Below are positions 7,463-20,239 of a DNA stretch of 20,239 bases, piece after piece. Origin of the DNA: a virus (taxonomy: Duplodnaviria; Heunggongvirae; Uroviricota; Caudoviricetes); IMG/VR virus record IMGVR_UViG_2657244986_000010, positions 1-20,239 of that record. One strand, given 5' to 3'. A program made the position numbers and the translations under genes. How positions within the stretch are numbered: position 1 is the stretch's first letter; every line of letters begins with the position of its first letter. The notes below the pieces were generated by a model. That model made no database searches, was not told where the DNA came from, and was given only the letters and a program-made list of their open reading frames with translations.

Positions 7463-7651
7463 ATGGCACGAACAATGCTCTATAAGCCTGGCAACATGAT
7501 CACCTGTGGTCAGTTTGCTGTCGATTACATCATTGTTGATGACGAAGAAGTTAAATCTCACCTGAAAAAAGGCTGGGTAAAAACTCCTGAAGAAACCGCA
7601 ACGAAGCATAAAGTGGCTAAGGCGGAAGAAGATGGCGAAAACGAAGGGTGA
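7463..7651 (+). CDS. Hypothetical small protein between coat and gp4-like genes (62 aa from the ATG at 7463)
   Basis: ORF track gives 7424..7651, but the ATG at 7463 has a GGGAGAAG Shine-Dalgarno 3 nt upstream and lies after the terminator hairpin. The 3' end overlaps the next gene by 20 nt. Confidence 0.45.
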   Translation: MARTMLYKPGNMITCGQFAVDYIIVDDEEVKSHLKKGWVKTPEETATKHKVAKAEEDGENEG

Positions 7652-8093
7652 TCTCGTTCTTAAGGCTTTACGAAAAGCCGGGCTGTATTCCAATGCCACG
7701 TTGACAGATGCTGACCCTCAGGCAATTGAAGATGCCATTAATGACCTCGAAGACATGATGGCAGCATGGCAGGCTAAAGGTATCGAGCTTGGATATCAGT
7801 TTGCTGATACAGAAAACGGCATCATGCCGTTACCTGACGATGATTCAGGTATCCCTGCATGGGCAAATGATGGCGTCGCTTTGAAACTCGCTGTGCAAGT
7901 GTGCATGGATAACGTCATTCAGCCGTCAGACGCTCTCCTTACCACTGCTGACAGTGCATATCAGACAATCTGTATCGCTTTAACCAAAATACCACCACTT
8001 GAGCGGCGAAATGACATGCCTCGCGGTAGTGGTAACAAAAGCGCGTTTACGTGGAATCGGTTTTACATCGAGAAAGATGATCCGAGTACGTGA
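7632..8093 (+). CDS. Head completion / tail accessory protein (P22 gp4-like)
   Basis: 153 aa, in the position and size range of P22 gp4 between coat and gp10-like genes. Confidence 0.65.
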   Translation: MAKTKGDLVLKALRKAGLYSNATLTDADPQAIEDAINDLEDMMAAWQAKGIELGYQFADTENGIMPLPDDDSGIPAWANDGVALKLAVQVCMDNVIQPSDALLTTADSAYQTICIALTKIPPLERRNDMPRGSGNKSAFTWNRFYIEKDDPST

Positions 8094-8102
8094 GGTGAAT
8101 AA

Positions 8103-9521
8103 ATGCCGATTCAGCAACTTCCGCTTATGAAAGGCGTCGGCAAAGACTTTCGAAACGCCGACTATATCGACTATCTGCCAGTGAATATGTTGGCTACACC
8201 CAAAGAAATCCTGAACAGCAGCGGATATCTTCGCTCATTCCCGGGCATTGCCAAACGTTCTGATGTGAACGGTGTATCTCGCGGCGTCGAGTACAACATG
8301 GCGCAGAATGCTGTTTATCGCGTGTGTGGTGGCAAGTTGTATAAGGGCGAAAGCGAAGTCGGTGACGTCGCTGGAAGTGGTCGCGTATCAATGGCGCATG
8401 GTCGAACATCTCAGGCTGTAGGCGTTAATGGTCAACTGGTCGAGTATCGCTATGATGGTACGGTTAAAACCGTCTCAAACTGGCCTACAGACAGCGGATT
8501 CACACAGTACGAGTTAGGTTCAGTTCGTGACATTACGCGCTTACGTGGGCGTTATGCGTGGTCAAAAGACGGTACTGATTCATGGTTTATCACTGACCTT
8601 GAAGACGAATCGCACCCTGACCGCTACAGCGCACAATATCGTGCCGAGTCTCAGCCGGACGGCATCATCGGCATCGGAACATGGCGAGACTTCATCGTCT
8701 GCTTTGGTTCATCGACGATTGAATATTTTTCCCTGACAGGATCAACTACCGTTGGTGCCGCTTTGTATGTCGCACAGCCATCACTGATGGTGCAAAAAGG
8801 CATCGCCGGGACTTACTGCAAAACGTCATTCGCTGATTCTTATGCGTTCATCAGCAATCCGGCAACAGGTGCTCCGTCTGTATACATCATCGGCTCCGGT
8901 CAGGTATCACCAATCGCCAGCGCGAGCATTGAGAAAATTCTCCGCTCCTACACTGCTAATGAACTGGCTGATGGTGTGATGGAGTCTCTGCGATTTGATG
9001 CGCATGAGCTGCTGATTATCCATCTTCCGCGCCATGTTCTCGTGTACGACGCATCTTCAAGCGCCAATGGTCCGCAATGGTGTGTGCTGAAAACGGGCCT
9101 GTATGACGATGTGTACCGCGCTATCGACTTCATTTACGAAGGCAATCAGATAACGTGCGGTGATAAGCTGGAGTCCGTGACCGGGAAATTGCAATTCGAC
9201 ATCAGCAGCCAGTACGACAAGCAACAGGAACACCTGCTGTTTACTCCACTGTTCAAAGCGGATAACGCCAGAGTGTTCGACCTTGAGGTTGAATCGTCAA
9301 CTGGCGTTGCGCAGTACGCCGACCGCCTTTTTCTCTCTGCAACCACTGACGGCATCAATTACGGGCGTGAGCAGATGATTGAGCAGAATGAACCGTTCGT
9401 TTACGACAAGCGTGTTTTGTGGAAGCGAGTAGGGCGCATCAGGAAAAACATTGGTTTCAAATTGCGCGTTATCACGAAGTCACCTGTCACTCTGTCTGGC
9501 GCTCAGATAAGGATTGAGTAA
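8103..9521 (+). CDS. Tail accessory protein (P22 gp10-like)
   Basis: 472 aa, the length I recall for P22 gp10, in the syntenic position. TAATG overlap with the tail needle gene. Confidence 0.75.
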
Positions 9522-10369
9522 TGGCGGATTCGAATCTCAATGTGCCGGTAATCATCCAAGCTACGCGGCTCGATACATCAGTTCTTCCACGCAATATCTT
9601 CTCGCAGTCGTATCTGCTTTACGTTATCGCACAGGGCACTGATGTTGGTAACGTGGCTAACAAGGCCAACGAGGCCGGACAGGGCGCTTATGACGCACAA
9701 GTCAGGAACGATGAGCAGGATGTGATTCTCGCTGACCATGAGCAGCGAATTTCTGCTGCGGAAGCAACGCTTGTTAATCATGAGGAGCGAATCAGCCAGG
9801 CAGAATCAACTCTTCAGGACCATGAAACGCGAATCGCTCAGAATGAAAGCGATATTGCGTCGCTTGATACCAGAGTTCAGTCGCTGGAGTCGCAGGTTTC
9901 AGACCATGAAACGCGCATTGATGCTCTGGAGTATGCAACCACACGCAAGAAGTCAGAGGTTGTTTACTCTGGCGTATCAGTAACCATCCCGACAGCGCCG
10001 ACCAACCTTGTTAGCCTGCTGAAAACGCTCACGCCGTCATCCGGGACGTTGGCACCATTCTTCGACACTGTTAACAACAAGATGGTTGTGTTCAACGAGA
10101 ACAAAACCTTGTTCTTCAAGCTGTCGATTGTCGGGACGTGGCCCAGCGGAACCGCCAACAGGTCAATGCAGCTAACATTTTCCGGTTCTGTTCCTGACAC
10201 ACTGGTAAGCGGTCGCAACTCGGCGACAACAACCGACAACATCCTGTTAGCTACGTTCTTCAGCGTGGATAAAGACGGCTTTCTTGCCACAAATGGCAGT
10301 ACGTTAACCATTCAGTCAAATGGGGCGGCGTTTACTGCCACAACCATCAAAATCATTGCGGAGCAGTGA
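9521..10369 (+). CDS. Tail needle protein (gp26-like) with extended C-terminal domain
   Basis: 282 aa. Central repeated coiled-coil blocks ([13 protein letters not shown] / [13 protein letters not shown] / [13 protein letters not shown] / [11 protein letters not shown]). The C-terminal ~140 residues are beta-rich, consistent with an Sf6/HK620-type knob rather than the shorter P22 needle. Confidence 0.8.
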
Positions 10370-10826: not shown

Positions 10827-11519
10827 ATGTTATATGCATTTAAGCTGGGCAGAAAACTGCGCGGCGAGGAACCTTATTGCCCTGAAAAGGGTGGGAAAGG
10901 TGGCAGTTCTGATAAAAGCGCAAAGTATGCCGCAGAAGCTCAGAAGTATGCAGCAGACCTGCAAAATCAGCAGTGGCAGACGATCATGAAAAACCTTGCT
11001 CCGTTCACGCCTCTTGCGGAGCAGTATGTTAACCAGTTGCAGAATCTTTCCAGTTTAGAAGGTCAGGGGCAGGCACTTAATCAGTATTACAACTCTCAGC
11101 AGTATAAAGACCTTGCAGGTCAGGCGCGTTACCAGAGTCTTGCTGCTGCGGAGGCGACGGGTGGACTTGGTTCGACAGCCACAAGCAATCAACTGGCTAC
11201 GATCGCGCCGACACTCGGTCAGTCTTGGTTATCAAACCAGATGAGCAATTACAACAATCTGGCAAACGTTGGGCTTGGTGCGCTGCAAGGTCAGGCAAAC
11301 GCCGGGCAGACGTACGCCAACAACATGAGCAGCATTGCACAGCAAAGCGCAGCACTTGCCGCTGCTAATGCCAATAAACCATCAAGTCTTCAGACTGCAA
11401 TTAGCGGTGGCACGTCTGGTGCGATTGCCGGTGCAGGTCTTGCCAGCCTTTTGGGAACATCAACGCCTTGGGGCGCTGGCATTGGTGCTGGTATCGGATT
11501 GCTTGGCTCGTTGTTTTAA
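10827..11519 (+). CDS. Ejection protein (P22 gp7-like)
   Basis: 230 aa. N-terminus MLYAFKLGRKLRGEEP...EKGGKGGSS closely resembles P22 gp7 as I recall it. Gly/Ala-rich hydrophobic C-terminus. Confidence 0.75.
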   Translation: MLYAFKLGRKLRGEEPYCPEKGGKGGSSDKSAKYAAEAQKYAADLQNQQWQTIMKNLAPFTPLAEQYVNQLQNLSSLEGQGQALNQYYNSQQYKDLAGQARYQSLAAAEATGGLGSTATSNQLATIAPTLGQSWLSNQMSNYNNLANVGLGALQGQANAGQTYANNMSSIAQQSAALAAANANKPSSLQTAISGGTSGAIAGAGLASLLGTSTPWGAGIGAGIGLLGSLF

Positions 11520-11528
11520 GGGGTAATC

Positions 11529-12860
11529 ATGGCTACTTGGCAAGGAACAAACGGCGGATTGTTGGCTGGTATCGGCGGCGTCAACTCAAACGCTCCGAGC
11601 GTAAATGACATCGGCAATACGCTTCAGCTTATCAGGCAGAACAATGATATTGAGCGTTCAGGCGCTAACAATGTTGGGCTGACTGCTTTGCAAGGCCTTT
11701 CAGGTATTGCGGGGGTGTTTCAGCAGGAAAAGCAGGCTCAGCGGCAGAAAGAATTTCAGCAGGCATACGCTAATGCTTATGCGTCTGGTGATCGCGGTGC
11801 TTTGCGTCAGTTGGCTACTCAATATCCAGACCAGATTGAATCCGTTCGTAAAGGCATGGGATTCATTGATGAAGAGCAGCGTAATTCTATCGGCACCTTA
11901 GCGGCTGGCGCACGCCTTGCGTCATCGTCTCCAGAAGCAATGCAATCATGGCTGCAAAACAACGCCGGTGAGTTAGCTCGTGTTGGCGTTAATCCTCATG
12001 ACGTCGCTCAGATGTACCAACAGAACCCGCGGCAGTTCGGCGAATTTGTCGATCACCTGGGGATGAACAGTCTCGGGCCCGAAAAATACTTTGACCTACA
12101 GGATAAAATGCAGGGTCGCCAGGTTACCATGCGCGGTCAGGATCTGGATTCGCAAACCGCCGCTCGGAATCAGGCAATCACAATGCGCGGACAAGATATC
12201 CAGGCGGATTTAGGTCAGCAGCGCATTAATCTGGACGCAGAAACAAACCGCATTAACAACGAAAATAAGCGCCTTGACCGGATGCTATCAGCAGAAACTA
12301 ACGACCTGAAGCGCCAGGAAATACAGAGCCGCATAGCAGCCAACAACCAGCAGTTGCAGCAGAAGCAGCAAGCGCTAAATGATGGCTACAAAGACGGCAT
12401 CAACACCCTCACAACCAGCATGTTCACTCTGAACGATATCGTTAGTTCTCCTTCACTTAAGAGCATTACAGGCTTACGTGGAGTAATCCCCAACGTTCCA
12501 GGCTCACAGGCTGCAGACACTCAGGCACGACTTGATACCTTTAAATCACAAGCATACCTGACAGCGGTTCAGGCCATGCGAGGCATGGGCGCACTTTCTG
12601 ATGCCGAGGGCAAAAAGCTCGACCAGGCTGTTGGTTCGCTGCAGAACTCGCAGAGCGAGGAGTCCTTTCGTCGCAACGCTGGCGTCATCCTGAACACGCT
12701 CAACCAGAAGCGTAATGAGGCGGTTGGTAAGTACGTTCAGCAAAACGGTATCAAGCGAGTGGAAGCGCCTCAGGCTTCTATAGATTACCTGAAGCAGCAC
12801 CCCGAACTGTCAATCGACTTCATTAATCGCTACGGATATCTTCCATCTTTGGGGCAGTAA
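11529..12860 (+). CDS. Ejection protein (P22 gp20-like)
   Basis: 443 aa with N-terminus MATWQG..., in the syntenic position. Gln-rich with a coiled-coil-like middle region. Confidence 0.75.
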   Translation: MATWQGTNGGLLAGIGGVNSNAPSVNDIGNTLQLIRQNNDIERSGANNVGLTALQGLSGIAGVFQQEKQAQRQKEFQQAYANAYASGDRGALRQLATQYPDQIESVRKGMGFIDEEQRNSIGTLAAGARLASSSPEAMQSWLQNNAGELARVGVNPHDVAQMYQQNPRQFGEFVDHLGMNSLGPEKYFDLQDKMQGRQVTMRGQDLDSQTAARNQAITMRGQDIQADLGQQRINLDAETNRINNENKRLDRMLSAETNDLKRQEIQSRIAANNQQLQQKQQALNDGYKDGINTLTTSMFTLNDIVSSPSLKSITGLRGVIPNVPGSQAADTQARLDTFKSQAYLTAVQAMRGMGALSDAEGKKLDQAVGSLQNSQSEESFRRNAGVILNTLNQKRNEAVGKYVQQNGIKRVEAPQASIDYLKQHPELSIDFINRYGYLPSLGQ

Positions 12861-15254
12861 ATGGCTAATTACCGTGATTTGTTAGAGCAGGCTGGCGCAC
12901 GTTACGGTGTGCCAGAAGGGTTGATGACTGCACTGGGTGCCAAGGAGTCTTCTTACAACCCTGCCGCAGTAAGCTCCGCCGGGGCTGTAGGATTGACTCA
13001 GGTCATGCCTGGGACATGGCGTGATATGGGTTATACCGATGAGCAAATGCAAAACCCCGAATATCAGGCTGACGCTGGCGCGCGCTATCTGGCAAAGATG
13101 TACCAGCAGTTTGGTAACTGGCGTGACGCTCTTCAGGCTTATCACGACGGTCCCGGCAACGTTATGAAGGCAAAGCGTGGTGAATATACGCCAGGACCTG
13201 AAGGCCGCGGTTACGTTGATGATCGCTTTGCTCAATGGGCGGGTGACCCGGTGACAGACTCAACAGTCGAACAGCGCGCCACCTCTGCAAAGGTACATCC
13301 TCAGCAAGACCCTAACAACCCGTTTGCACAACTGGAAGCACAGTCATCCGAACAAGTATCGGCATCAGGCGTGCAGTCAGACCCAAATAATCCATTTGCT
13401 CAGATTGAGCAGCAGGCAGCCAGTCAGCAGCCACCTCAACCCGTAAGTTCTGTCGCACCGAAACCTGTTCAGCAGCAAGGCGGAATAATGTCTGACCTTG
13501 GTAATGGACTTGCTGAAACCGGGCGCGGCTTACTACAGGCAGGAATCAACGTAGCGAACATACCTGCTGAACTCACTGATGCTGTAACAAGCGCGGCGGC
13601 TTGGGCTGGAGGTAAACTCGGCATTGGCGATGGTACATATCAACCAGCACCACGAGTAACAACGCAGGGATTAGAGCAGGACTTTGGCCTTCAGCAAGGC
13701 GCGCTGACTCCACAAACGACAGAGGGAAGGGTATTTGCTGAAGCATTGCCTTACCTCACTCCTGCTGGCGTTGAGAGAGCGGCAACACAGGCACCAACAC
13801 TTGCTGGTCGAATTGCTCAGGGTGCAACTCGTCTTCTAGCAGAAAACGCAGTTGGATCACTTGCTGCAAACAGTGCGAAAGATGATGCGGAAGCACTCGC
13901 CACCGATTTAGGCGTTGGTGTGCTGGCTGGCGGTGCTATTAACGCTGCCGGACGTGGATTAGGTGCTGCTTATCGTGGTGTTCGTGGTTCGATAGCACCA
14001 GAAGCTCAACAGGCTATCAGGTTTGCAGAGCGTGAAGGAGTTCCTCTGCACACCACAGACCTGTTACAGCCTACTTCCCGCGTCGGGAAAATGGCGCAGA
14101 CTACAGCAGAAAATATCCCCCTGGCTGGCACAAGCGGAATGAGAGCAACGCAACAGGAAGCGAGAAGCCAGTTGGTGCAGAGATTTGCCGATAAATTCGG
14201 TGAGTATGATCCAGCGGTTGTTATTGACAGCCTTAAAGCGAAAACATCAGGAATTCGTCGTGCCGCCGGTAATCGACTGGAGCAGGTTCAGAATGCTATG
14301 GCTGGAGTAAACATTCAGCCTGCGCGAGCAATTCAGCAGATTGATACAGAAATATCTAATCTGCAGAAGCTTGGTAAGGTCGCCGATAACGAGACTATTT
14401 CAAAACTTCAGTCCTATCGTGATGAGCTTGTTCGCAATGCTGGTCCTGATGGTCCGGTAAATCTGGATTTGAAGCAATTAAGCGATCTGCGCAGCCAGTT
14501 CAGAATGGACGTGAAGGGGGAACGACCAGTGTTGCCAAACCGTTCCGATGCTGCCATTCAGCGCGTTTACAAGGCGATGACAGACGATATCAATGGTGCC
14601 ATTGGTCAGAATCTTGGCAACGATACTCTCCGTAAATATCAGCAGGCCAATGCCGTCTACGCTGACGAAGCGGCGAAACTAAAGAATACCAGGCTGAAGA
14701 ATGTTCTCATGAAAGGCGACCTGACGCCGGAAGTTGTCAACAACATGCTATTCAGCAAGAACAAATCGGAAATTAAGACGCTGTATAACTCAGTTGGTCG
14801 TGTTGGCAGGGCGCAAATGCGCAATGGCATCATTGGAAAGGCGATGGAGAAATCAGGTGGTTCCCCTGACCAGTTCCTTCGGCAGCTTAACATCCTGCAA
14901 AACCAGACTGGCATCACATTTAAGGGGCAGGACGCTGCTTATCTGAAAGGATTAAAAAACTATCTGCAATCCACGCAGCAGGCTGCAAAAGCGGCAGTAA
15001 CAACACCCACAGGGCAGCAAACTATCCCGTTCATTATTGGGTATGGGACGGCAATGAACCCGGCGACAACTGGCGCAGCAGTAAGCTACGGACTTCTTAC
15101 TCGCGCCTATGAGAGCGAGCCATTCAGAAATGCAATGCTCCGAATGGCAAACACCCCACGCGGATCAACAGCGTTTGAGAAAGCCATGCAGCAGGCACAA
15201 AAGGCAATTAACGCTCTGACGCAGGGGGCTAAGTCTGATGCGTTGTCAGAATAG
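12861..15254 (+). CDS. Ejection protein (gp16-like) with N-terminal lytic transglycosylase (SLT) domain
   Basis: 797 aa. Residues ~20-100 carry the three family-1 lytic transglycosylase motifs: catalytic E-S (GAKESSYNP, Glu codon at 12945-12947), GLTQVMP, and AYHDGPGNV. Last gene of the ejection-protein cluster. Confidence 0.8.
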   Translation: MANYRDLLEQAGARYGVPEGLMTALGAKESSYNPAAVSSAGAVGLTQVMPGTWRDMGYTDEQMQNPEYQADAGARYLAKMYQQFGNWRDALQAYHDGPGNVMKAKRGEYTPGPEGRGYVDDRFAQWAGDPVTDSTVEQRATSAKVHPQQDPNNPFAQLEAQSSEQVSASGVQSDPNNPFAQIEQQAASQQPPQPVSSVAPKPVQQQGGIMSDLGNGLAETGRGLLQAGINVANIPAELTDAVTSAAAWAGGKLGIGDGTYQPAPRVTTQGLEQDFGLQQGALTPQTTEGRVFAEALPYLTPAGVERAATQAPTLAGRIAQGATRLLAENAVGSLAANSAKDDAEALATDLGVGVLAGGAINAAGRGLGAAYRGVRGSIAPEAQQAIRFAEREGVPLHTTDLLQPTSRVGKMAQTTAENIPLAGTSGMRATQQEARSQLVQRFADKFGEYDPAVVIDSLKAKTSGIRRAAGNRLEQVQNAMAGVNIQPARAIQQIDTEISNLQKLGKVADNETISKLQSYRDELVRNAGPDGPVNLDLKQLSDLRSQFRMDVKGERPVLPNRSDAAIQRVYKAMTDDINGAIGQNLGNDTLRKYQQANAVYADEAAKLKNTRLKNVLMKGDLTPEVVNNMLFSKNKSEIKTLYNSVGRVGRAQMRNGIIGKAMEKSGGSPDQFLRQLNILQNQTGITFKGQDAAYLKGLKNYLQSTQQAAKAAVTTPTGQQTIPFIIGYGTAMNPATTGAAVSYGLLTRAYESEPFRNAMLRMANTPRGSTAFEKAMQQAQKAINALTQGAKSDALSE
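13308..13409 (+). repeat. Two diverged tandem copies of a ~24-residue DPNNPFAQ-containing motif inside the gp16-like gene
   Basis: QQDPNNPFAQLEAQ... at 13308 and QSDPNNPFAQIEQQ... at 13380, spaced 72 nt (24 codons) apart, in the Gln-rich linker after the SLT domain. Codon usage differs between the copies. Confidence 0.6.
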
Positions 15255-15637: not shown

Positions 15638-15725
15638 CGTAACCTACTGGATAAATACTCAATAGTACCATTTCGGTATGCAATCACATCATGGTTGCAT
15701 CATATCATTCGTCTGGAGCAATGAA

Positions 15726-17810
15726 ATGTCAGATATCACCGCAAATGTTGTGGTAAGCATGCCTTCGCAACTCTTCACTATGGCTCGTTCTTTTAAAGCG
15801 GTTGCCAATGGCAAAATTTATATCGGTAAAATTGACACTGACCCGGTAAATCCTGAAAACCAGATTCAGGTTTATGTGGAGAACGAAGACGGCTCTCACG
15901 TTCCTGTTGCACAGCCAATCATCATTAACGCTGCTGGTTACCCGGTATATAACGGACAGATTTCCAAGTTTGTAACCGTGCAAGGCCACTCTATGTCTGT
16001 TTATGATGCGTATGGTGCACAGCAGTTCTATTTTCCGAATGTGCTGAAGTATGACCCTGACCAATTAAGGCAAGAATTAGCTTCTGACAGAGGAGCAACA
16101 TTATCATTAAGTCAGATAGCTACTTCTTACGGTCTTGATTTCTCGTTAGGCGGTGTATGGCGGGAGGGGGTGTTATCTAATGTTGATAACTGGTGGTGGT
16201 ATAATAATAAAATCTACACCGGTGGTAGCGGAAATCTGCCATCTATCCCATCAGCACCGTGGTATCCAATTCGCCCGGGATACAAATTAAACTTAACAGA
16301 CTTTATTACCTCCAAGGGTGTGAGCGATATTCTTGACGTAGTGGACTGGCAATGGGCTTTCGATAGCGCGAAGCTCAATGCTTCTCACACATCAATGCTT
16401 GACATGGACGCACGCGAATACACTATGAATTCCACTGGTTACATAGCGCCACAGGGTGTTGGTCTTCGCGGTCCGAAAGATGCAATGATGAACCCGTCTT
16501 TAGATGGTATAGCTGTTATATATGTCAATAAAGAGCCATCATCAAACGATGTGTTTGTGACAATGCAAGGTGGAAACGCATTTGAAAATTTCGGTATATT
16601 CTTTGCTCAGCAAATCTACACCACACTGGCCTCAGCGTTAGATACTGGGACGATGTTCAAACGCGTACCTGCAACTGGAGCTGGTGATGAAATTATGACA
16701 AAAGCATGCATATTAAAGGGGGTTAGCGCGTGTGGGGTTGCAAAACTTTGGAGTGGAAGCCTTGATGACAATGCGACAGGTGAATACGATGAGATAATTC
16801 GCGTTTCTGCCACGCCAAACAAATTTGGGCCTACATTTCGGTATGGTATTAGCACTGATTTTCTGCGCACAAAAACAGTTCATATTAATGCTAATGTTGT
16901 TAGCGCGTATCGAGCTAGATATGGAGTTGATTTTACGGTAAGAGCGCTAACCAGCGACAATACATCAGCCATAGGATTCCTTATTGAGCGCATGGATGGT
17001 GGTCTATTCGAGGATATCCTGACATATGGTGTTCCATTCTCGGTTGTTTTTGGTGCTGTTGGCGGGTCTGGCGGGGTTAACTCAGGTAGTGCAAACTTCG
17101 TATCATGTGGCTTTGACGCAACCTGTTTTCCTATCTACATTAACGCCCCTACAGGAGCATTTGGTATTTCTTTCTCTAACTGCCAGGCTGTCTTCGATGA
17201 GCAGTATGGTGACACGTCCGGAGCTCTGGTTTATTTGGGCGCAGGAGCTTCCTCACATCAGATAATGCTTAGCAATATCAAGGTGCAGAAGTCAGCAAGT
17301 TTCAATTATCGACCAGTAAGGGCTGTTTCTGGAAGTGCGGATAACAGGGTGACAATTTCAACCAGTGCGTTAACAGCCAGTCAAGACGTTCTTGATGAGG
17401 GAACCAGTAATCGCATAAGCATTATTGGATCAACAAGAAACCTCGGCGGCCTTAATATGATGACTAATACTACGGCAGAATCATCGCTGGTGTCATCAAT
17501 GGGGGAGTTGAATACAGTAGTAAGAAAGCAGTTATCAGTACCAATTCAAGCCGGCTCTTCATTTGTCAATTTGACAGTAACGTATCCATATACTGGTTGG
17601 CTTGCAACTCCTAATGTGATAACAGAGCTTGTCGGTGTGGCAATTCCTGGTCAACCAGATTCAACTCTTTACGACGTAAGAACGTTTTCTCGGACAGAAA
17701 ATGGGTGCGTACTTAGATGCACCTTGAGCTCAGCAGCGACTGGTAACGGTAACCTTATAGTTGACATATATGTTGTCGGTACGGTTCGGGGAACGCTCAA
17801 AGCGGTTTAG
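15726..17810 (+). CDS. Tailspike protein (conserved head-binding domain, divergent receptor-binding domain)
   Basis: Residues 1-113 ([11 protein letters not shown]...[21 protein letters not shown]...NVLKYDPDQ) match the conserved P22/Sf6/HK620 tailspike head-binding domain. GGAG Shine-Dalgarno 8 nt upstream of the ATG at 15726. The track's 15678 start adds 16 unsupported residues. Confidence 0.9.
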
Positions 17811-17886: not shown

Positions 17887-19002
17887 GTGAGCAAAAACAG
17901 GTTGCATGGATTAGATGCGTGGAGAGGTGTTGCTGCGATAATGGTTGCAATTTACCATTTTAACGTTAATTCGTTTATGCATGAATTAACGATAGTTAAA
18001 AACTCATGGTTATTCGTTGAGTTTTTTTTCGTGCTAAGCGGATTTATCATGATGTATAATTATTCAGATAGAATTAATAATCGTGAGCAGCTACTTTCTT
18101 TTTTATTTAAGCGTTTTTCAAGGATTTGGCCTCTTCATATATTTGTTCTTTTTTTATTTGTGCCTGTAGCTATTGCTGGATATGTAATCGGTAATATTGA
18201 TCCGTCTCGTTTTTCTGTTGCATCATTTATAAGTAATGTATTTCTTATCCAATCGTTAGGTGTGAATGATGGCGTGACATGGAACTCTCCATCGTGGAGT
18301 ATTAGCTCAGAGTTTTTTGTTTACGTTGCGTTTGGCCTTATCACACTAACCTTTACTAAAGGGTGGTGTCGTTTTATTATTCCGTCTTTGATTTGCTTTG
18401 TTATTTTGACTAATTTTTCGAATATGGGTGATGCATACAAGCTGGCCTTCTTTAGGTGTGGTTATTCTTTTTTTATTGGGTGTGTAGTATATTATTTGTA
18501 TAAATCAAAATCATTAAAATCTGGTACATGGTTAGAAATCCTATCGGTGGTTGCTGTTGTATTAACAATGTCATTATTTTTAATCAAAGGTAATGATTTG
18601 ATTGCATATTGCATGCCTTTTTTATTCTGTGCCATTGTTTTCTCGTTTGCTCGCGGGGATGGTGTAATTAGTAAAGCAATGGGAAATAATCTTTTTATAA
18701 AGATGGGTGAGGTTTCTTACTCTATATATATGACGCATGCATTTGTTGCTATTTGTATAAAAAGCTTGTTGCTTTTATTTGGAAAGTTTATTAACCACAA
18801 TTTTTTGGTTAAAATTGGTAACGAAACGCAAGTTAATCTAGGGGGAGTTCTAGCGAATAACTTATTGGATATAGTATTTTTGGTATTGGTCATATCTTTT
18901 TCAATGTTGACATATCGATATGTTGAGTCGCCATGTCAAAGAATACTCAATGCATGGTATAAAAATAAAAAGATGGTTGAGACATCAAATTTGGTTATGT
19001 GA
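17887..19002 (+). CDS. Acyltransferase-3 family integral membrane protein (O-antigen acetyltransferase-like conversion gene)
   Basis: GTG start at 17887 with an AGGGGGA Shine-Dalgarno upstream. N-terminal LDAWRGVAAIMVAIYH and internal WSISSEFFVY motifs typical of acyltransferase_3, with multiple hydrophobic helices. Visibly AT-rich relative to the structural genes. Confidence 0.85.
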   Translation: MSKNRLHGLDAWRGVAAIMVAIYHFNVNSFMHELTIVKNSWLFVEFFFVLSGFIMMYNYSDRINNREQLLSFLFKRFSRIWPLHIFVLFLFVPVAIAGYVIGNIDPSRFSVASFISNVFLIQSLGVNDGVTWNSPSWSISSEFFVYVAFGLITLTFTKGWCRFIIPSLICFVILTNFSNMGDAYKLAFFRCGYSFFIGCVVYYLYKSKSLKSGTWLEILSVVAVVLTMSLFLIKGNDLIAYCMPFLFCAIVFSFARGDGVISKAMGNNLFIKMGEVSYSIYMTHAFVAICIKSLLLLFGKFINHNFLVKIGNETQVNLGGVLANNLLDIVFLVLVISFSMLTYRYVESPCQRILNAWYKNKKMVETSNLVM

Positions 19003-19018
19003 TTGGACTTTCTATACA

Positions 19019-19054
19019 AAGTCTTGCGCCAGATAGCAAGGCTTTGTGTTTTAC
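19019..19054 (+). terminator. Putative intrinsic terminator downstream of the acyltransferase gene
   Basis: AAAGTCTTGC / GCAAGGCTTT 10-bp stem (one G-U wobble) with an 8-nt loop, followed by GTGTTTTA, 17 nt after the acyltransferase stop. Confidence 0.45.
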
Positions 19055-19081
19055 GAATGATGAAGTTCACTCCTTACATAT

Positions 19082-20239
19082 TCAAGCATACTTTTCGTCA
19101 AGCCAATCTGCCCACCACTGCATCATTTCTCTGCGTTTATCGAGATACTGAGCATGGTTGTAAATCCCACGCACAGATCCGCCGTTGGCATGTGCCAGTT
19201 GCACTTCAATAGCATCAGCAGGCCATTCGTGCTCGTTCGTAATCGTGCTGAATTCATGCCTGAATCCGTGACCGCTTTCCAGACCTTCATAGCCGATTTG
19301 TTTGATCACAAGCAGTACAGCGTTCTCGCAAATTGGCTTCTTCTTATCGTTGCGCCCGGCAAAAACAAACTCTGATACTGGTTTGGTGATTGAGCTTAGC
19401 GTAGTGAGAAGTTCAACCACCTGGTCTGACATAGGAACCACATGAATTTTGCGTCCCTTCATCACACTGGCGTCGATGGTGATAATCCTGTTTTCAAAAT
19501 CGACGTTCTTCCATAGCATGGAACGAAGCTCTTTCGTTCTTAGGGCTGTGTAGCGTAAAACTTTGGTCGCAATGAGCGATACGATGCTTCCTGAAAATGT
19601 TGCCAGTGCTTTGTTGAATGCCGGGATCTGGTCTGCAGGAAGAAACGGGAAGTTCTTCTTGCGGTATCCCTTCATGGCGTCAGCAAGGTCAGGTGCCGGG
19701 TTATATTTAGCCCTGCCGGTGACAATAGCGTAACGGAAAACCTCGCCGCATCTTCTGCGTGCTTTGTTGGCTCGCTCCATTGCACCGCGATCTTCAAATC
19801 TGCGGATTACTTCCAGCAGTTGCATCGGCTCAATATCCTGAATCTCAAGACCGCCGATGATGGGTAAAATGTCGTCATCAAACATTTTGGCAAGTTCAGT
19901 TGCATAGCCTACTGACCAGACTTGCTTCTTGTGCTCGTACCATTCCTTGTAAATCGCACTAAATGAATTGTTGTTAGACGAAGCCTTTTTCGCCTTTACC
20001 GGATCGATGCCAACCGAGATGTCTTTCCTCGCAGTCCATGCCTTATCCCTTGCTTCCTGCAAAGTCATAAGCGGATATTTTCCGACGGTCAGGATTTTCT
20101 CCTTACCGTCAATCTTGTAGCGAAGCTGCCATACCTTTTTCCCGGATACAGGAACATAAAGGTACAGGCCATTACCATCGAGAAGGCGGTATGGTTTTTC
20201 TTTCGGCTTTGCTGCTTCAATCTGCTTAACGGTGAGCAT
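19082..20239 (-). CDS. int: Tyrosine recombinase / phage integrase (P4/P22-type with N-terminal arm-binding domain)
   Basis: 385 aa. N-terminal MLTVKQIEAAKP...YRLLDGNGLYLYV...WQLRY arm-type domain. C-terminal catalytic region with R, HGFRH and a Tyr in GIYNHAQY. Start codon is the reverse complement of the last 3 bases of the window. Confidence 0.92.
   Translation of the reverse strand: MLTVKQIEAAKPKEKPYRLLDGNGLYLYVPVSGKKVWQLRYKIDGKEKILTVGKYPLMTLQEARDKAWTARKDISVGIDPVKAKKASSNNNSFSAIYKEWYEHKKQVWSVGYATELAKMFDDDILPIIGGLEIQDIEPMQLLEVIRRFEDRGAMERANKARRRCGEVFRYAIVTGRAKYNPAPDLADAMKGYRKKNFPFLPADQIPAFNKALATFSGSIVSLIATKVLRYTALRTKELRSMLWKNVDFENRIITIDASVMKGRKIHVVPMSDQVVELLTTLSSITKPVSEFVFAGRNDKKKPICENAVLLVIKQIGYEGLESGHGFRHEFSTITNEHEWPADAIEVQLAHANGGSVRGIYNHAQYLDKRREMMQWWADWLDEKYA

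What the first reader, a model, noticed from the sequence alone, without database searches (positions are those of the whole stretch)
12861..15254. gp16-position ejection protein is a fusion with an N-terminal lytic transglycosylase domain
The last ejection protein is 797 aa, clearly longer than the ~609 aa I recall for P22 gp16. Its first ~100 residues carry the E-S, GLTQ and AYHDGxG motifs of soluble lytic transglycosylases. A peptidoglycan-cutting domain on an internal, ejected virion protein would give this phage its own cell-wall penetration activity during DNA delivery, analogous to T7 gp16. Whether the predicted catalytic Glu29 is actually required is testable.
Basis: partly seen in the sequence, partly recalled or inferred. 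Interest (0 to 1): 0.55.

Follow-up and report, generated by a model that had tools for sequence, protein, structure and literature searches.

The report
Cell-wall-cutting domain on phage ejection protein
The last DNA-ejection protein of this P22-like E. coli prophage carries a well-conserved peptidoglycan-cutting (lytic transglycosylase) domain at its front end, much as phage T7 gp16 does, but public databases already annotate this arrangement, so it is real and only modestly new.

Summary
Window 12861-15254 (+) is one uninterrupted 797-aa ORF. Residues 7-110 match Pfam SLT (E=2.8e-25). Glu29-Ser30 aligns with the catalytic Glu478 of E. coli Slt70 and with Glu37 of T7 gp16. AlphaFold gives a confident lysozyme-like fold that hits Slt70, MltC/E/F and T7 gp16 structures. 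Residues ~209-797 are a Sf6-type gp16 body, about 88% identical to Sf6 gp13, which lacks the domain. The gene sits after gp7 and gp20 and has no signal peptide.

The fusion is not an assembly artefact. The same SLT+linker module occurs in 70 of 5,426 complete E. coli genomes and in the isolated phages IME10, phiKp_30, Sf101, Dewey, Huey and APC_JM3.2.

It is also not new. The window is identical to an E. coli ST12468 prophage, where PGAP names the gene "lytic transglycosylase domain-containing protein". A 2022 review nevertheless says P22-like phages lack such a domain.

Two further points emerged. The SLT+linker always travels with the C-terminal ~60% of gp20 as one mosaic block with almost no nucleotide diversity. 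The linker carries two copies of a short motif found paired at many gp16 N-termini.

The most likely role is local, conditionally useful peptidoglycan cleavage during channel assembly. This is untested.

The parts
12861..15254 (+). SLT-gp16 gene: 797-aa ejection protein plus stop codon. Identical to RefSeq WP_064765207.1.
12861..13238 (+). N-terminal lytic transglycosylase (SLT, goose-lysozyme-like) domain, aa 1-126. Pfam envelope is aa 7-110.
   Evidence: Pfam E=2.8e-25. AF2 pLDDT is above 90 for aa 1-110 and still confident to about aa 126. Foldseek top hits are Slt70 1qte, P. aeruginosa Slt, MltF/C/E and T7 gp16.
12945..12950 (+). Codons for E29-S30, the predicted catalytic Glu and its partner Ser.
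   Evidence: Aligned to Slt70 E478-S479 and T7 gp16 E37-S38. Invariant in 37 SLT sequences.
13239..13484 (+). Q/P/A/S-rich linker predicted to be disordered, aa 127-208.
   Evidence: Composition. pLDDT about 47-67 in the N-terminal model; in the full-length model, below 50 at aa 112-149, 162-173 and 189-238.
13308..13337 (+). Linker motif copy 1, DPNNPFAQLE (aa 150-159).
   Evidence: A short helix is predicted at aa 154-167.
13380..13409 (+). Linker motif copy 2, DPNNPFAQIE (aa 174-183).
   Evidence: A short helix is predicted at aa 178-187.
13485..15251 (+). Sf6-type gp16 body, aa 209-797. It begins at the conserved QQxGxMSDLG...GRGLLQAGINVANIP segment. The all-alpha C-terminal part (aa 375-797) is confidently modelled.
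   Evidence: phrog_770 'DNA transfer protein' E=3.9e-240. Overall identity is 88-89% to Sf6 gp13 and VSe13, and 35% to P22 gp16. AF2 model. The family has 1,128 representatives at 50% clustering.
12066..12860 (+). C-terminal ~60% of gp20 (aa ~180-443), which is co-inherited with the SLT+linker as one mosaic block.
   Evidence: Relative to Sf6, VSe13 and Gally, nucleotide homology stops at 12065 and resumes at 13473. Protein alignment. This segment and the SLT module occur in the same nine phage records and in 69 versus 70 E. coli genomes.
11529..12860 (+). gp20 homolog, the periplasmic channel ejection protein.
   Evidence: PF16928 Inj_translocase E=1.1e-67.
10827..11519 (+). gp7 homolog, the outer-membrane/extracellular channel ejection protein.
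   Evidence: PF25688 P22_gp7 E=1.8e-134.
7632..8093 (+). gp4 tail adaptor homolog. In P22 this is the only virion protein previously credited with muralytic activity.
   Evidence: PF11650 E=2.5e-41. The review PMC5380687 lists P22 gp4 as a virion-associated lysin.

Best explanation
The gene encodes a virion-packaged ejection protein with three parts: an N-terminal family-1 lytic transglycosylase domain (aa 1-126, catalytic Glu29), a flexible linker of about 80 residues carrying two short helical motifs, and a Sf6-type gp16 body.

The protein is made in the cytoplasm without a signal peptide, so it cannot reach the murein of the producing cell. It is packaged with gp7 and gp20 and expelled through the tail at infection.

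Once in the periplasm, the tethered SLT domain would cut glycan strands locally. That would open the peptidoglycan mesh so the gp20 periplasmic barrel and the gp16 cytoplasmic-membrane complex can assemble into the DNA channel.

By analogy with T7 gp16, the activity is probably helpful only under some conditions, such as highly cross-linked murein, stationary phase or low temperature, because close relatives such as Sf6 and P22 infect without it.

Shown here: the single ORF, SLT homology and fold, intact catalytic motifs, gp16 homology and synteny, absence of a signal peptide, and occurrence in viable isolated phages. Inferred: packaging, enzymatic activity, and the timing and site of action.
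For: The ORF is intact and translationally coupled to gp20. Pfam SLT scores E=2.8e-25. E29-S30 aligns with Slt70 E478-S479 and T7 gp16 E37-S38. The catalytic and substrate-site residues are invariant across 37 SLT sequences. AF2 gives a confident fold matching solved lytic transglycosylases and T7 gp16 core structures. The body belongs to the gp16 family and the gene lies after gp7 and gp20 and before the tailspike. The N-terminus is not hydrophobic and there is no signal peptide. Identical SLT modules occur in the isolated phages IME10, phiKp_30, Sf101, Dewey, Huey and APC_JM3.2. A distant metagenomic P22-like virion module has SLT-gp16 in the same position. The sister genera Sortsnevirus and Skarprettervirus carry a 55-67% identical SLT at the start of their 'DNA transfer protein'. 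For T7, the gp16 transglycosylase is reported as needed for genome internalisation when peptidoglycan is highly cross-linked (PMC8954989). The recent in situ P22 model places gp16 in the periplasm before gp20 forms a barrel through the peptidoglycan, and models the gp16 N-terminal region against the gp20 plinth (preprint 10.64898/2026.09.03.749273).
Against: There are no enzymatic or virion-proteomic data for this protein or for any P22-like SLT-gp16. The third motif reads AYHDG where at least 90% of aligned SLT domains have AYNAG; the H-D version is, however, conserved in the 59%-identical sortkaff protein. Sf6 and P22 lack the domain and still infect, so it cannot be essential to the channel mechanism. 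Only about 6% of P22-like ejection modules in complete E. coli genomes carry it: 70 genomes against 1,168 with gp7. The near-zero nucleotide diversity of the module means purifying selection on it cannot be measured within this lineage.
Confidence: 0.75

Rival explanations
1. The SLT domain is catalytically dead or weak. It serves as a peptidoglycan-binding anchor that positions gp16 or the channel at the cell wall rather than cutting it.
For: The motif AYHDG deviates from the AYNAG consensus at two positions that are at least 90% conserved. The channel works without any SLT in Sf6 and P22.
Against: The catalytic E29-S30 pair, GLTQ, Y94 and G97 are all intact and invariant across homologs. The H-D variant is conserved in a 59%-identical lineage, which argues against decay. 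The fold is predicted with high confidence.
Confidence: 0.1
2. The SLT module is a passenger. It has spread recently because it is physically linked to a favoured variant of the gp20 C-terminal domain, and it contributes little to fitness itself.
For: The SLT+linker and the gp20 C-terminal part form one block with 0-1 mismatches per 150 nt across phages whose flanks differ by 2-8% and more. The two segments co-occur perfectly in phage records. The block is a minority variant.
Against: Independent, deeply diverged SLT-gp16 fusions exist: P0263 and P0243, whose bodies are 33-34% identical to this one, and the Sortsnevirus group. The combination has therefore been retained or re-invented repeatedly.
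Confidence: 0.08
3. The domain acts at the end of the cycle, helping lysis or release, rather than at entry.
For: SLT domains occur in some phage endolysins; the PHROG hits include families labelled 'endolysin'.
Against: The prophage has its own lysis cassette upstream, with a GH24 lysozyme and a lysis protein. The SLT has no signal peptide or holin-dependent feature. It is covalently fused to a protein of the ejection-protein family, inside the virion-assembly operon.
Confidence: 0.04
4. The long ORF is an assembly or sequencing artefact that joins two genes.
For: A 211-aa 'SLT only' protein cluster exists (P0001).
Against: P0001 is a deletion remnant: the SLT with a frameshifted tail, followed by a 145-aa gp16 C-terminal fragment, in a decayed prophage. 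The intact ORF is present in 67 or more independent complete genomes and in several phage isolates.
Confidence: 0.01

Closest known systems
Phage T7 gp16 (internal virion protein D)
   Same: Both have an N-terminal SLT domain with the catalytic Glu aligned (T7 E37, here E29), at 28% identity and E=2e-11. Foldseek matches T7 core chains 7eyb_I and 9jyy_I. Both are the last and largest of three consecutive ejection-protein genes. Both lack a signal peptide and are delivered through the tail.
   Different: The bodies show no detectable similarity (BLASTP E=2.1; no PDB fold match for the body). Lengths are 1318 and 797 aa. T7 ejection proteins form an ordered core stack, whereas those of P22-like phages are reported not to (PMC8954989).
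P22 gp16 (609 aa) and Sf6 gp13 (665 aa)
   Same: The body is homologous: 88-89% overall identity to Sf6 gp13, about 95% nucleotide identity from window 13473/13536 onward, and 35% to P22 gp16. The gene position is identical.
   Different: Neither has an SLT or any other Pfam or NCBIfam domain. Their N-terminal segments, about 93 aa in Sf6 and about 50 aa in P22, are unrelated to the SLT+linker.
Sf101 gp13 (YP_009153087.1, 911 aa), the unannotated IME10 ORF, and phiKp_30 BEI45442.1
   Same: The SLT+linker is identical at the protein level. The IME10 and phiKp_30 proteins are full-length equivalents with a Sf6-type body.
   Different: Sf101, Dewey, Huey and APC_JM3.2 join the same module to a very different gp16 body. 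The annotations disagree: 'transglycosylase', 'lytic tail fiber protein', 'DNA transfer protein', 'hypothetical protein', or none.
'DNA transfer protein / transglycosylase' of Sortsnevirus, Skarprettervirus, IME_EC2, Lumpael and Kosakonia phages (for example sortkaff gp44, 1007 aa)
   Same: These carry an SLT domain 55-67% identical to this one near the N-terminus, including the AYHDGPGNV variant. They also have the paired F-x-Q-hydrophobic-acidic motifs and the conserved GRG..Q.GI...N.P segment at the start of the body.
   Different: The rest of the body is only marginally similar. In sortkaff the SLT lies between the two motif copies rather than before both. These are lytic phages of other genera.
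E. coli Slt70 catalytic domain (PDB 1QSA/1QTE) and small stand-alone bacterial SLT proteins
   Same: The fold and active-site motifs match. The nearest non-phage relatives are SLT proteins of about 200 aa at 40-54% identity.
   Different: The bacterial enzymes are exported or anchored in the envelope, and Slt70 has large superhelical domains. Here the domain is cytoplasmically synthesised and fused to an ejection protein.

Membership tests
Family-1 lytic transglycosylase / Pfam SLT (PF01464) | Profile match above the curated threshold. | tested here: met
   88.6 bits against a 21.3 cut-off, E=2.8e-25, aa 7-110 covering profile positions 2-110 of 117.
Family-1 lytic transglycosylase / Pfam SLT (PF01464) | Catalytic Glu in the E-S motif. 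| tested here: met
   E29-S30 aligns to Slt70 E478-S479 and T7 gp16 E37-S38. Invariant in 37 sequences.
Family-1 lytic transglycosylase / Pfam SLT (PF01464) | G-L-M-Q and A-Y-N-A-G substrate-site motifs. | tested here: inconclusive
   GLTQ is present, with G44 and Q47 invariant. The third motif reads AYHDG: A93, Y94 and G97 are invariant, but H95 and D96 replace the N and A found in at least 90% of homologs. The same variant occurs in sortkaff.
Family-1 lytic transglycosylase / Pfam SLT (PF01464) | Goose-type lysozyme-like alpha-helical fold. | tested here: met
   AF2 pLDDT is above 90 over aa 1-110. Foldseek probability is 1.00 to Slt70, P. aeruginosa Slt, MltC, MltE, MltF and MltD.
Family-1 lytic transglycosylase / Pfam SLT (PF01464) | Non-hydrolytic cleavage of MurNAc-GlcNAc bonds giving 1,6-anhydroMurNAc. 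| not testable with these tools
   Requires a biochemical assay.
P22 gp16 / Sf6 gp13 ejection (pilot) protein family | Sequence homology of the body. | tested here: met
   phrog_770 E=3.9e-240 over aa 108-797. Aligned with Sf6 gp13 and P22 gp16. Homolog P0263 carries PF26808 Phage_P22_gp16.
P22 gp16 / Sf6 gp13 ejection (pilot) protein family | Gene order gp14-gp7-gp20-gp16, upstream of the tailspike. | tested here: met
P22 gp16 / Sf6 gp13 ejection (pilot) protein family | Packaged in the virion and ejected into the cell at infection. | not testable with these tools
   Inferred from homology. Needs virion mass spectrometry or ejection assays.
T7-type gp16 (internal virion protein D) | N-terminal SLT domain. 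| tested here: met
   phrog_342 'internal virion protein with endolysin domain' matches aa 3-189 only.
T7-type gp16 (internal virion protein D) | Homologous C-terminal body of about 1100 aa. | tested here: not met
   BLASTP of the body against T7 gp16 gives E=2.1. There is no fold match to T7 core chains outside the SLT. The protein therefore works like T7 gp16 at its N-terminus but is not a member of that family.

The most novel reading that the evidence does not exclude
The SLT is one component of a co-adapted 'cell-wall-crossing cassette'. The cassette comprises the part of gp20 that forms the barrel through the peptidoglycan and the plinth on the cytoplasmic membrane (aa ~180-443), plus the gp16 N-terminal module (SLT and linker). 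It moves between P22-like phages as a single unit. The two NNPFAQ(L/I)E helices in the linker would be variants of a widespread paired NPFDQFD motif, acting as docking peptides that tether gp16, and with it the enzyme, to the gp20 dodecamer. Cutting would then occur exactly where the barrel must pass.
Probability: 0.2. Interest if true: 0.5.

Novelty: already known. Interest (0 to 1): 0.3.

Why it matters
How podophage channels get through the peptidoglycan is still unclear for P22. The only muralytic activity reported there is assigned to gp4 (PMC5380687). Yet the recent in situ structure finds gp4 structurally unchanged in the tail adaptor after ejection. In the passages of that preprint retrieved here, which were not a full reading, no peptidoglycan-cleaving activity is assigned to any ejected protein.

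Natural SLT-plus and SLT-minus gp16 variants with about 95% identical bodies offer a ready-made comparison. Examples are this prophage or IME10 against Sf6. Such pairs could test whether a T7-style transglycosylase speeds channel assembly in P22-like phages.

The finding also corrects a statement in a recent review that P22-like phages lack this domain (PMC8954989). The domain architecture itself is already catalogued, so the value lies in framing that experiment rather than in discovery.

Tried and rejected
- **Split gene or frameshift.** The 211-aa SLT-only cluster P0001 is a deletion remnant in a decayed prophage, so this was rejected.
- **Tandem repeats.** TRF found none in the gene. The two linker motifs are too short and too far apart for it.
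- **Internal regulatory signals.** The promoter and terminator scan between gp20 and the tailspike found nothing above shuffle expectation.
- **Fold of the gp16 body.** Foldseek of the full-length model against the PDB gave no match with E below 0.1. There is no solved relative and no structural link to the T7 gp16 body.
- **Other enzymatic N-terminal modules on gp16 homologs.** Pfam scans of 20 long representatives found only SLT (P0263, P0243). Two others are portal-gp16 and coat-gp16 chimeras from prophage decay (P0135, P0198). One has a C-terminal InPase domain (P0239).
- **Purifying selection on the SLT module.** This was not measurable, because the module has 0-1 nucleotide differences among all close relatives.
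- **Literature.** No open-access paper was found that discusses SLT-gp16 in P22-like phages. The Sf101 genome paper does not mention it. Casjens & Thuman-Commike 2011, the paper most likely to have noted it, is not held in the library, so prior description there can be neither confirmed nor excluded.
Full report
**What is there.**
Window 12861-15254 (+) is one uninterrupted ORF of 797 codons. Its ATG directly follows the TAA stop of the upstream gene, and a G-rich stretch lies a few bases upstream. No promoter-like or terminator-like site above chance separates it from its neighbours.

The surrounding genes form the late operon of a P22-like phage (Lederbergvirus type):
- terminase, portal, scaffold and coat
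- gp4 (7632-8093) and gp10 (8103-9521)
- a Sf6-type needle with knob (9521-10369)
- gp14, then gp7 (10827-11519) and gp20 (11529-12860)
- the gene in question
- an Arc/Mnt-like repressor on the minus strand
- a tailspike with the P22 head-binding domain, an O-antigen acyltransferase, and an IntS integrase

The whole window is identical to a prophage in the E. coli ST12468 chromosome (NZ_CP103694.1), integrated next to a tRNA-Arg gene and yfdC.

**The N-terminal domain.**
Residues 7-110 match Pfam SLT (PF01464) with E=2.8e-25 and 88.6 bits against a 21.3-bit threshold.

Against solved structures the best sequence match is the catalytic domain of E. coli Slt70. Query K28-E29-S30 aligns to Slt70 Q477-E478-S479. 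In alignments with T7 gp16, E29 falls on T7 E37. That this is the T7 residue studied by Moak and Molineux is from my own knowledge. The review PMC8954989 cites their work for the statement that the T7 domain is needed for genome internalisation when peptidoglycan is highly cross-linked.

In an alignment with 36 diverse homologs, E29, S30, A42, G44, Q47, T52, P66, A74, Y76, A93, Y94 and G97 are invariant. The one deviation is H95-D96, where at least 90% of sequences have N-A. The same AYHDGPGNV string occurs in the 59%-identical protein of phage sortkaff, so it is a conserved sub-type rather than decay.

AlphaFold2 models aa 1-110 at pLDDT above 90, with confidence holding to about aa 126. Foldseek finds Slt70, P. 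aeruginosa Slt, MltF, MltC, MltE and MltD, and the T7 core chains 7eyb_I and 9jyy_I.

There is no signal peptide and no strongly hydrophobic segment.

**The rest of the protein.**
- *Linker.* Residues 127-208 are rich in Q, P, A and S and are modelled with low confidence. They contain two copies of DPNNPFAQ(L/I)E, at aa 150-159 and aa 174-183. The full-length model puts short helices on both.
- *Body.* From about aa 205-209 the protein is a gp16-family body. phrog_770 'DNA transfer protein' scores E=3.9e-240. It is 88-89% identical overall to Sf6 gp13 and VSe13 gp13, and 35% to P22 gp16. The invariant residues Q205, Q206, M210 and G214 mark the start of the shared part.
- *Confidence and fold.* Residues 375-797 are confidently all-alpha. 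They have no solved structural relative and no similarity to the T7 gp16 body.
- *Relatives lacking the domain.* Sf6 gp13, Gally gp12 and P22 gp16 have no SLT or any other Pfam hit, and Sf6 gp13 and P22 gp16 also have no NCBIfam hit.

**Not an artefact, and not rare.**
- The first 618 nt occur in 70 of 5,426 complete E. coli genomes, 67 of them at 99% identity or better. All are chromosomal and labelled 'lytic transglycosylase domain-containing protein'.
- The module is 100% identical at the protein level in the isolated phages IME10, phiKp_30, Sf101, Dewey, Huey and APC_JM3.2.
- The gp7 gene marks 1,168 genomes, so roughly 6% of P22-like ejection modules in E. coli carry this module.
- Across the wider gp16 family there are 1,128 representatives at 50% clustering. 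Of the best 150, 115 are at least 550 aa, with a median of 652 aa. SLT N-termini appear in three separate full-length clusters: this one, P0263 (802 aa) and P0243 (811 aa).
- P0263 sits in the same position of a distant metagenomic P22-like virion module.
- Phages of sister genera (Sortsnevirus, Skarprettervirus, IME_EC2, Lumpael, Kosakonia phages) have an SLT 55-67% identical to this one at the start of their 'DNA transfer protein'.
- A 211-aa 'SLT only' cluster is a deletion remnant, not a natural split gene.

**Mosaic structure.**
Compared with Sf6, VSe13 and Gally, nucleotide homology of about 94-95% covers gp7 and the first ~179 codons of gp20. It then disappears from 12066 to 13472 and resumes at 13473 for the whole gp16 body. 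The protein alignment of gp20 shows the same switch.

Compared with Sf101 the pattern is the reverse. Homology of 98% runs from gp7 through all of gp20 and the SLT+linker, and stops at 13478, where a different body begins.

The exchanged unit is therefore the C-terminal ~60% of gp20 plus the SLT+linker. Its left boundary lies close to what a 2026 preprint defines as the PP1/PP2 border of P22 gp20. In that preprint, PP2 is the barrel that crosses the peptidoglycan and PP3 is the plinth on the cytoplasmic membrane. The same preprint models the gp16 N-terminal region against PP3.

Within this block there are 0-1 mismatches per 150 nt between the window, IME10 and phiKp_30. The SLT+linker itself shows none, while the gp16 body differs at 61 and 155 codons respectively.

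The gp20 C-terminal type and the SLT module occur in exactly the same nine full phage records, abutting each other. They occur in 69 versus 70 E. coli genomes; that comparison is of counts only, and I did not intersect the genome lists.

**Likely mechanism.**
The protein is made in the cytoplasm without an export signal. It is packaged like other gp16 proteins and expelled at infection.

The preprint's proposed order is gp7, then gp16 into the periplasm, then gp20 forming a dodecameric barrel through the peptidoglycan to meet gp16 at the membrane. A tethered transglycosylase on gp16 would be in the right place, and would arrive before the barrel, to open the mesh locally.

Sf6 and P22 manage without it, and the T7 enzyme is reported to matter only under certain conditions. 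I therefore expect a conditional benefit. These steps are inference; only the sequence, fold, context and distribution are shown.

**Comparison with what is known, and novelty.**
Functionally this is the T7 gp16 solution placed on a P22-type body. It passes the tests for SLT membership except for the variant third motif. It passes the testable criteria for the gp16 family. It fails the test for T7-type gp16 membership, because the bodies are unrelated.

The architecture is already recorded in public annotation: PGAP for this exact protein (WP_064765207.1), GenBank for Sf101 ('transglycosylase', KJ832078), and PHROG families.

I found no open-access paper that discusses it. [quoted passage not shown] The 2011 comparative paper by Casjens and Thuman-Commike could not be read.

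I rate the finding as already known at the level of annotation, uncharacterised experimentally, and of modest interest.

Noticed in passing
window 13308-13337 and 13380-13409; also P0132, P0145, P0156, P0165, P0170, P0197, P0222, and L006 5902-8922: Many gp16-family proteins begin with a paired short motif: MAN(P/F/V)FDQFD(E/D) near residue 5 and a second copy 15-30 aa later. Eight of 115 full-length representatives have two or more copies, against none in 200 shuffles. The window's two DPNNPFAQ(L/I)E repeats look like a variant. In sortkaff gp44 the SLT lies between the two copies. In P0165 and P0197 an unknown ~115-aa insert lies there. The motifs may be docking peptides.
   Followed up: partly
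window 12066-13484: The C-terminal ~60% of gp20 plus the SLT+linker form one block with almost no nucleotide diversity: 0-1 mismatches per 150 nt across the window, IME10 and phiKp_30. The flanks differ by 2-8% and more. This suggests recent horizontal spread of the block among E. coli, Shigella and Klebsiella P22-like phages.
   Followed up: partly
L005 2222-4219 (Salmonella phage VSe13 gp13); PHROG phrog_29864: A 665-aa Sf6-type gp13 with no detectable SLT domain is annotated 'lytic transglycosylase domain-containing protein'. PHROG family 29864, named 'transglycosylase', matches only the gp16 body (aa 295-516). The enzyme name appears to have been carried over from fusion proteins to relatives that lack the domain.
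   Followed up: partly
L001 5001-7394 (phage IME10, NC_019501.1 31064-33457): The full-length SLT-gp16 gene, 97.4% identical at the nucleotide level, is not annotated at all in the IME10 records, which list only 27 features.
   Followed up: yes
P0239 (1043 aa, gp16-family representative): This gp16 homolog carries a C-terminal PF18823 'InPase' domain (E=5e-56). An enzymatic or toxin-type domain on the cytoplasmic end of an ejected protein is unusual.
   Followed up: no
P0135, P0198, P0001/L008: Chimeric ORFs were found in public assemblies: portal-gp16, coat-gp16, and an SLT with a frameshifted tail followed by a gp16 fragment. These are deletion products in decaying P22-like prophages and can mislead architecture censuses.
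   Followed up: partly
window 15678-17810: The longest tailspike ORF starts at 15678, but the P22 head-binding domain begins at residue 17 and PGAP starts the gene at 15726. The receptor-binding part matches many different PHROG tailspike families through the N-terminal head-binding region only.
   Followed up: no
window 9521-10369 versus L001 1808-2509: The window has a 282-aa Sf6-type tail needle with a knob domain (PF16532). The otherwise ~98% identical phage IME10 has a 233-aa P22-type needle. This is another mosaic swap within the same operon.
   Followed up: no
window 17887-20239: An O-antigen acyltransferase (PF01757) and an IntS-type integrase lie at the prophage end next to tRNA-Arg in the source genome. 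This is typical of a serotype-converting P22-like prophage.
   Followed up: no
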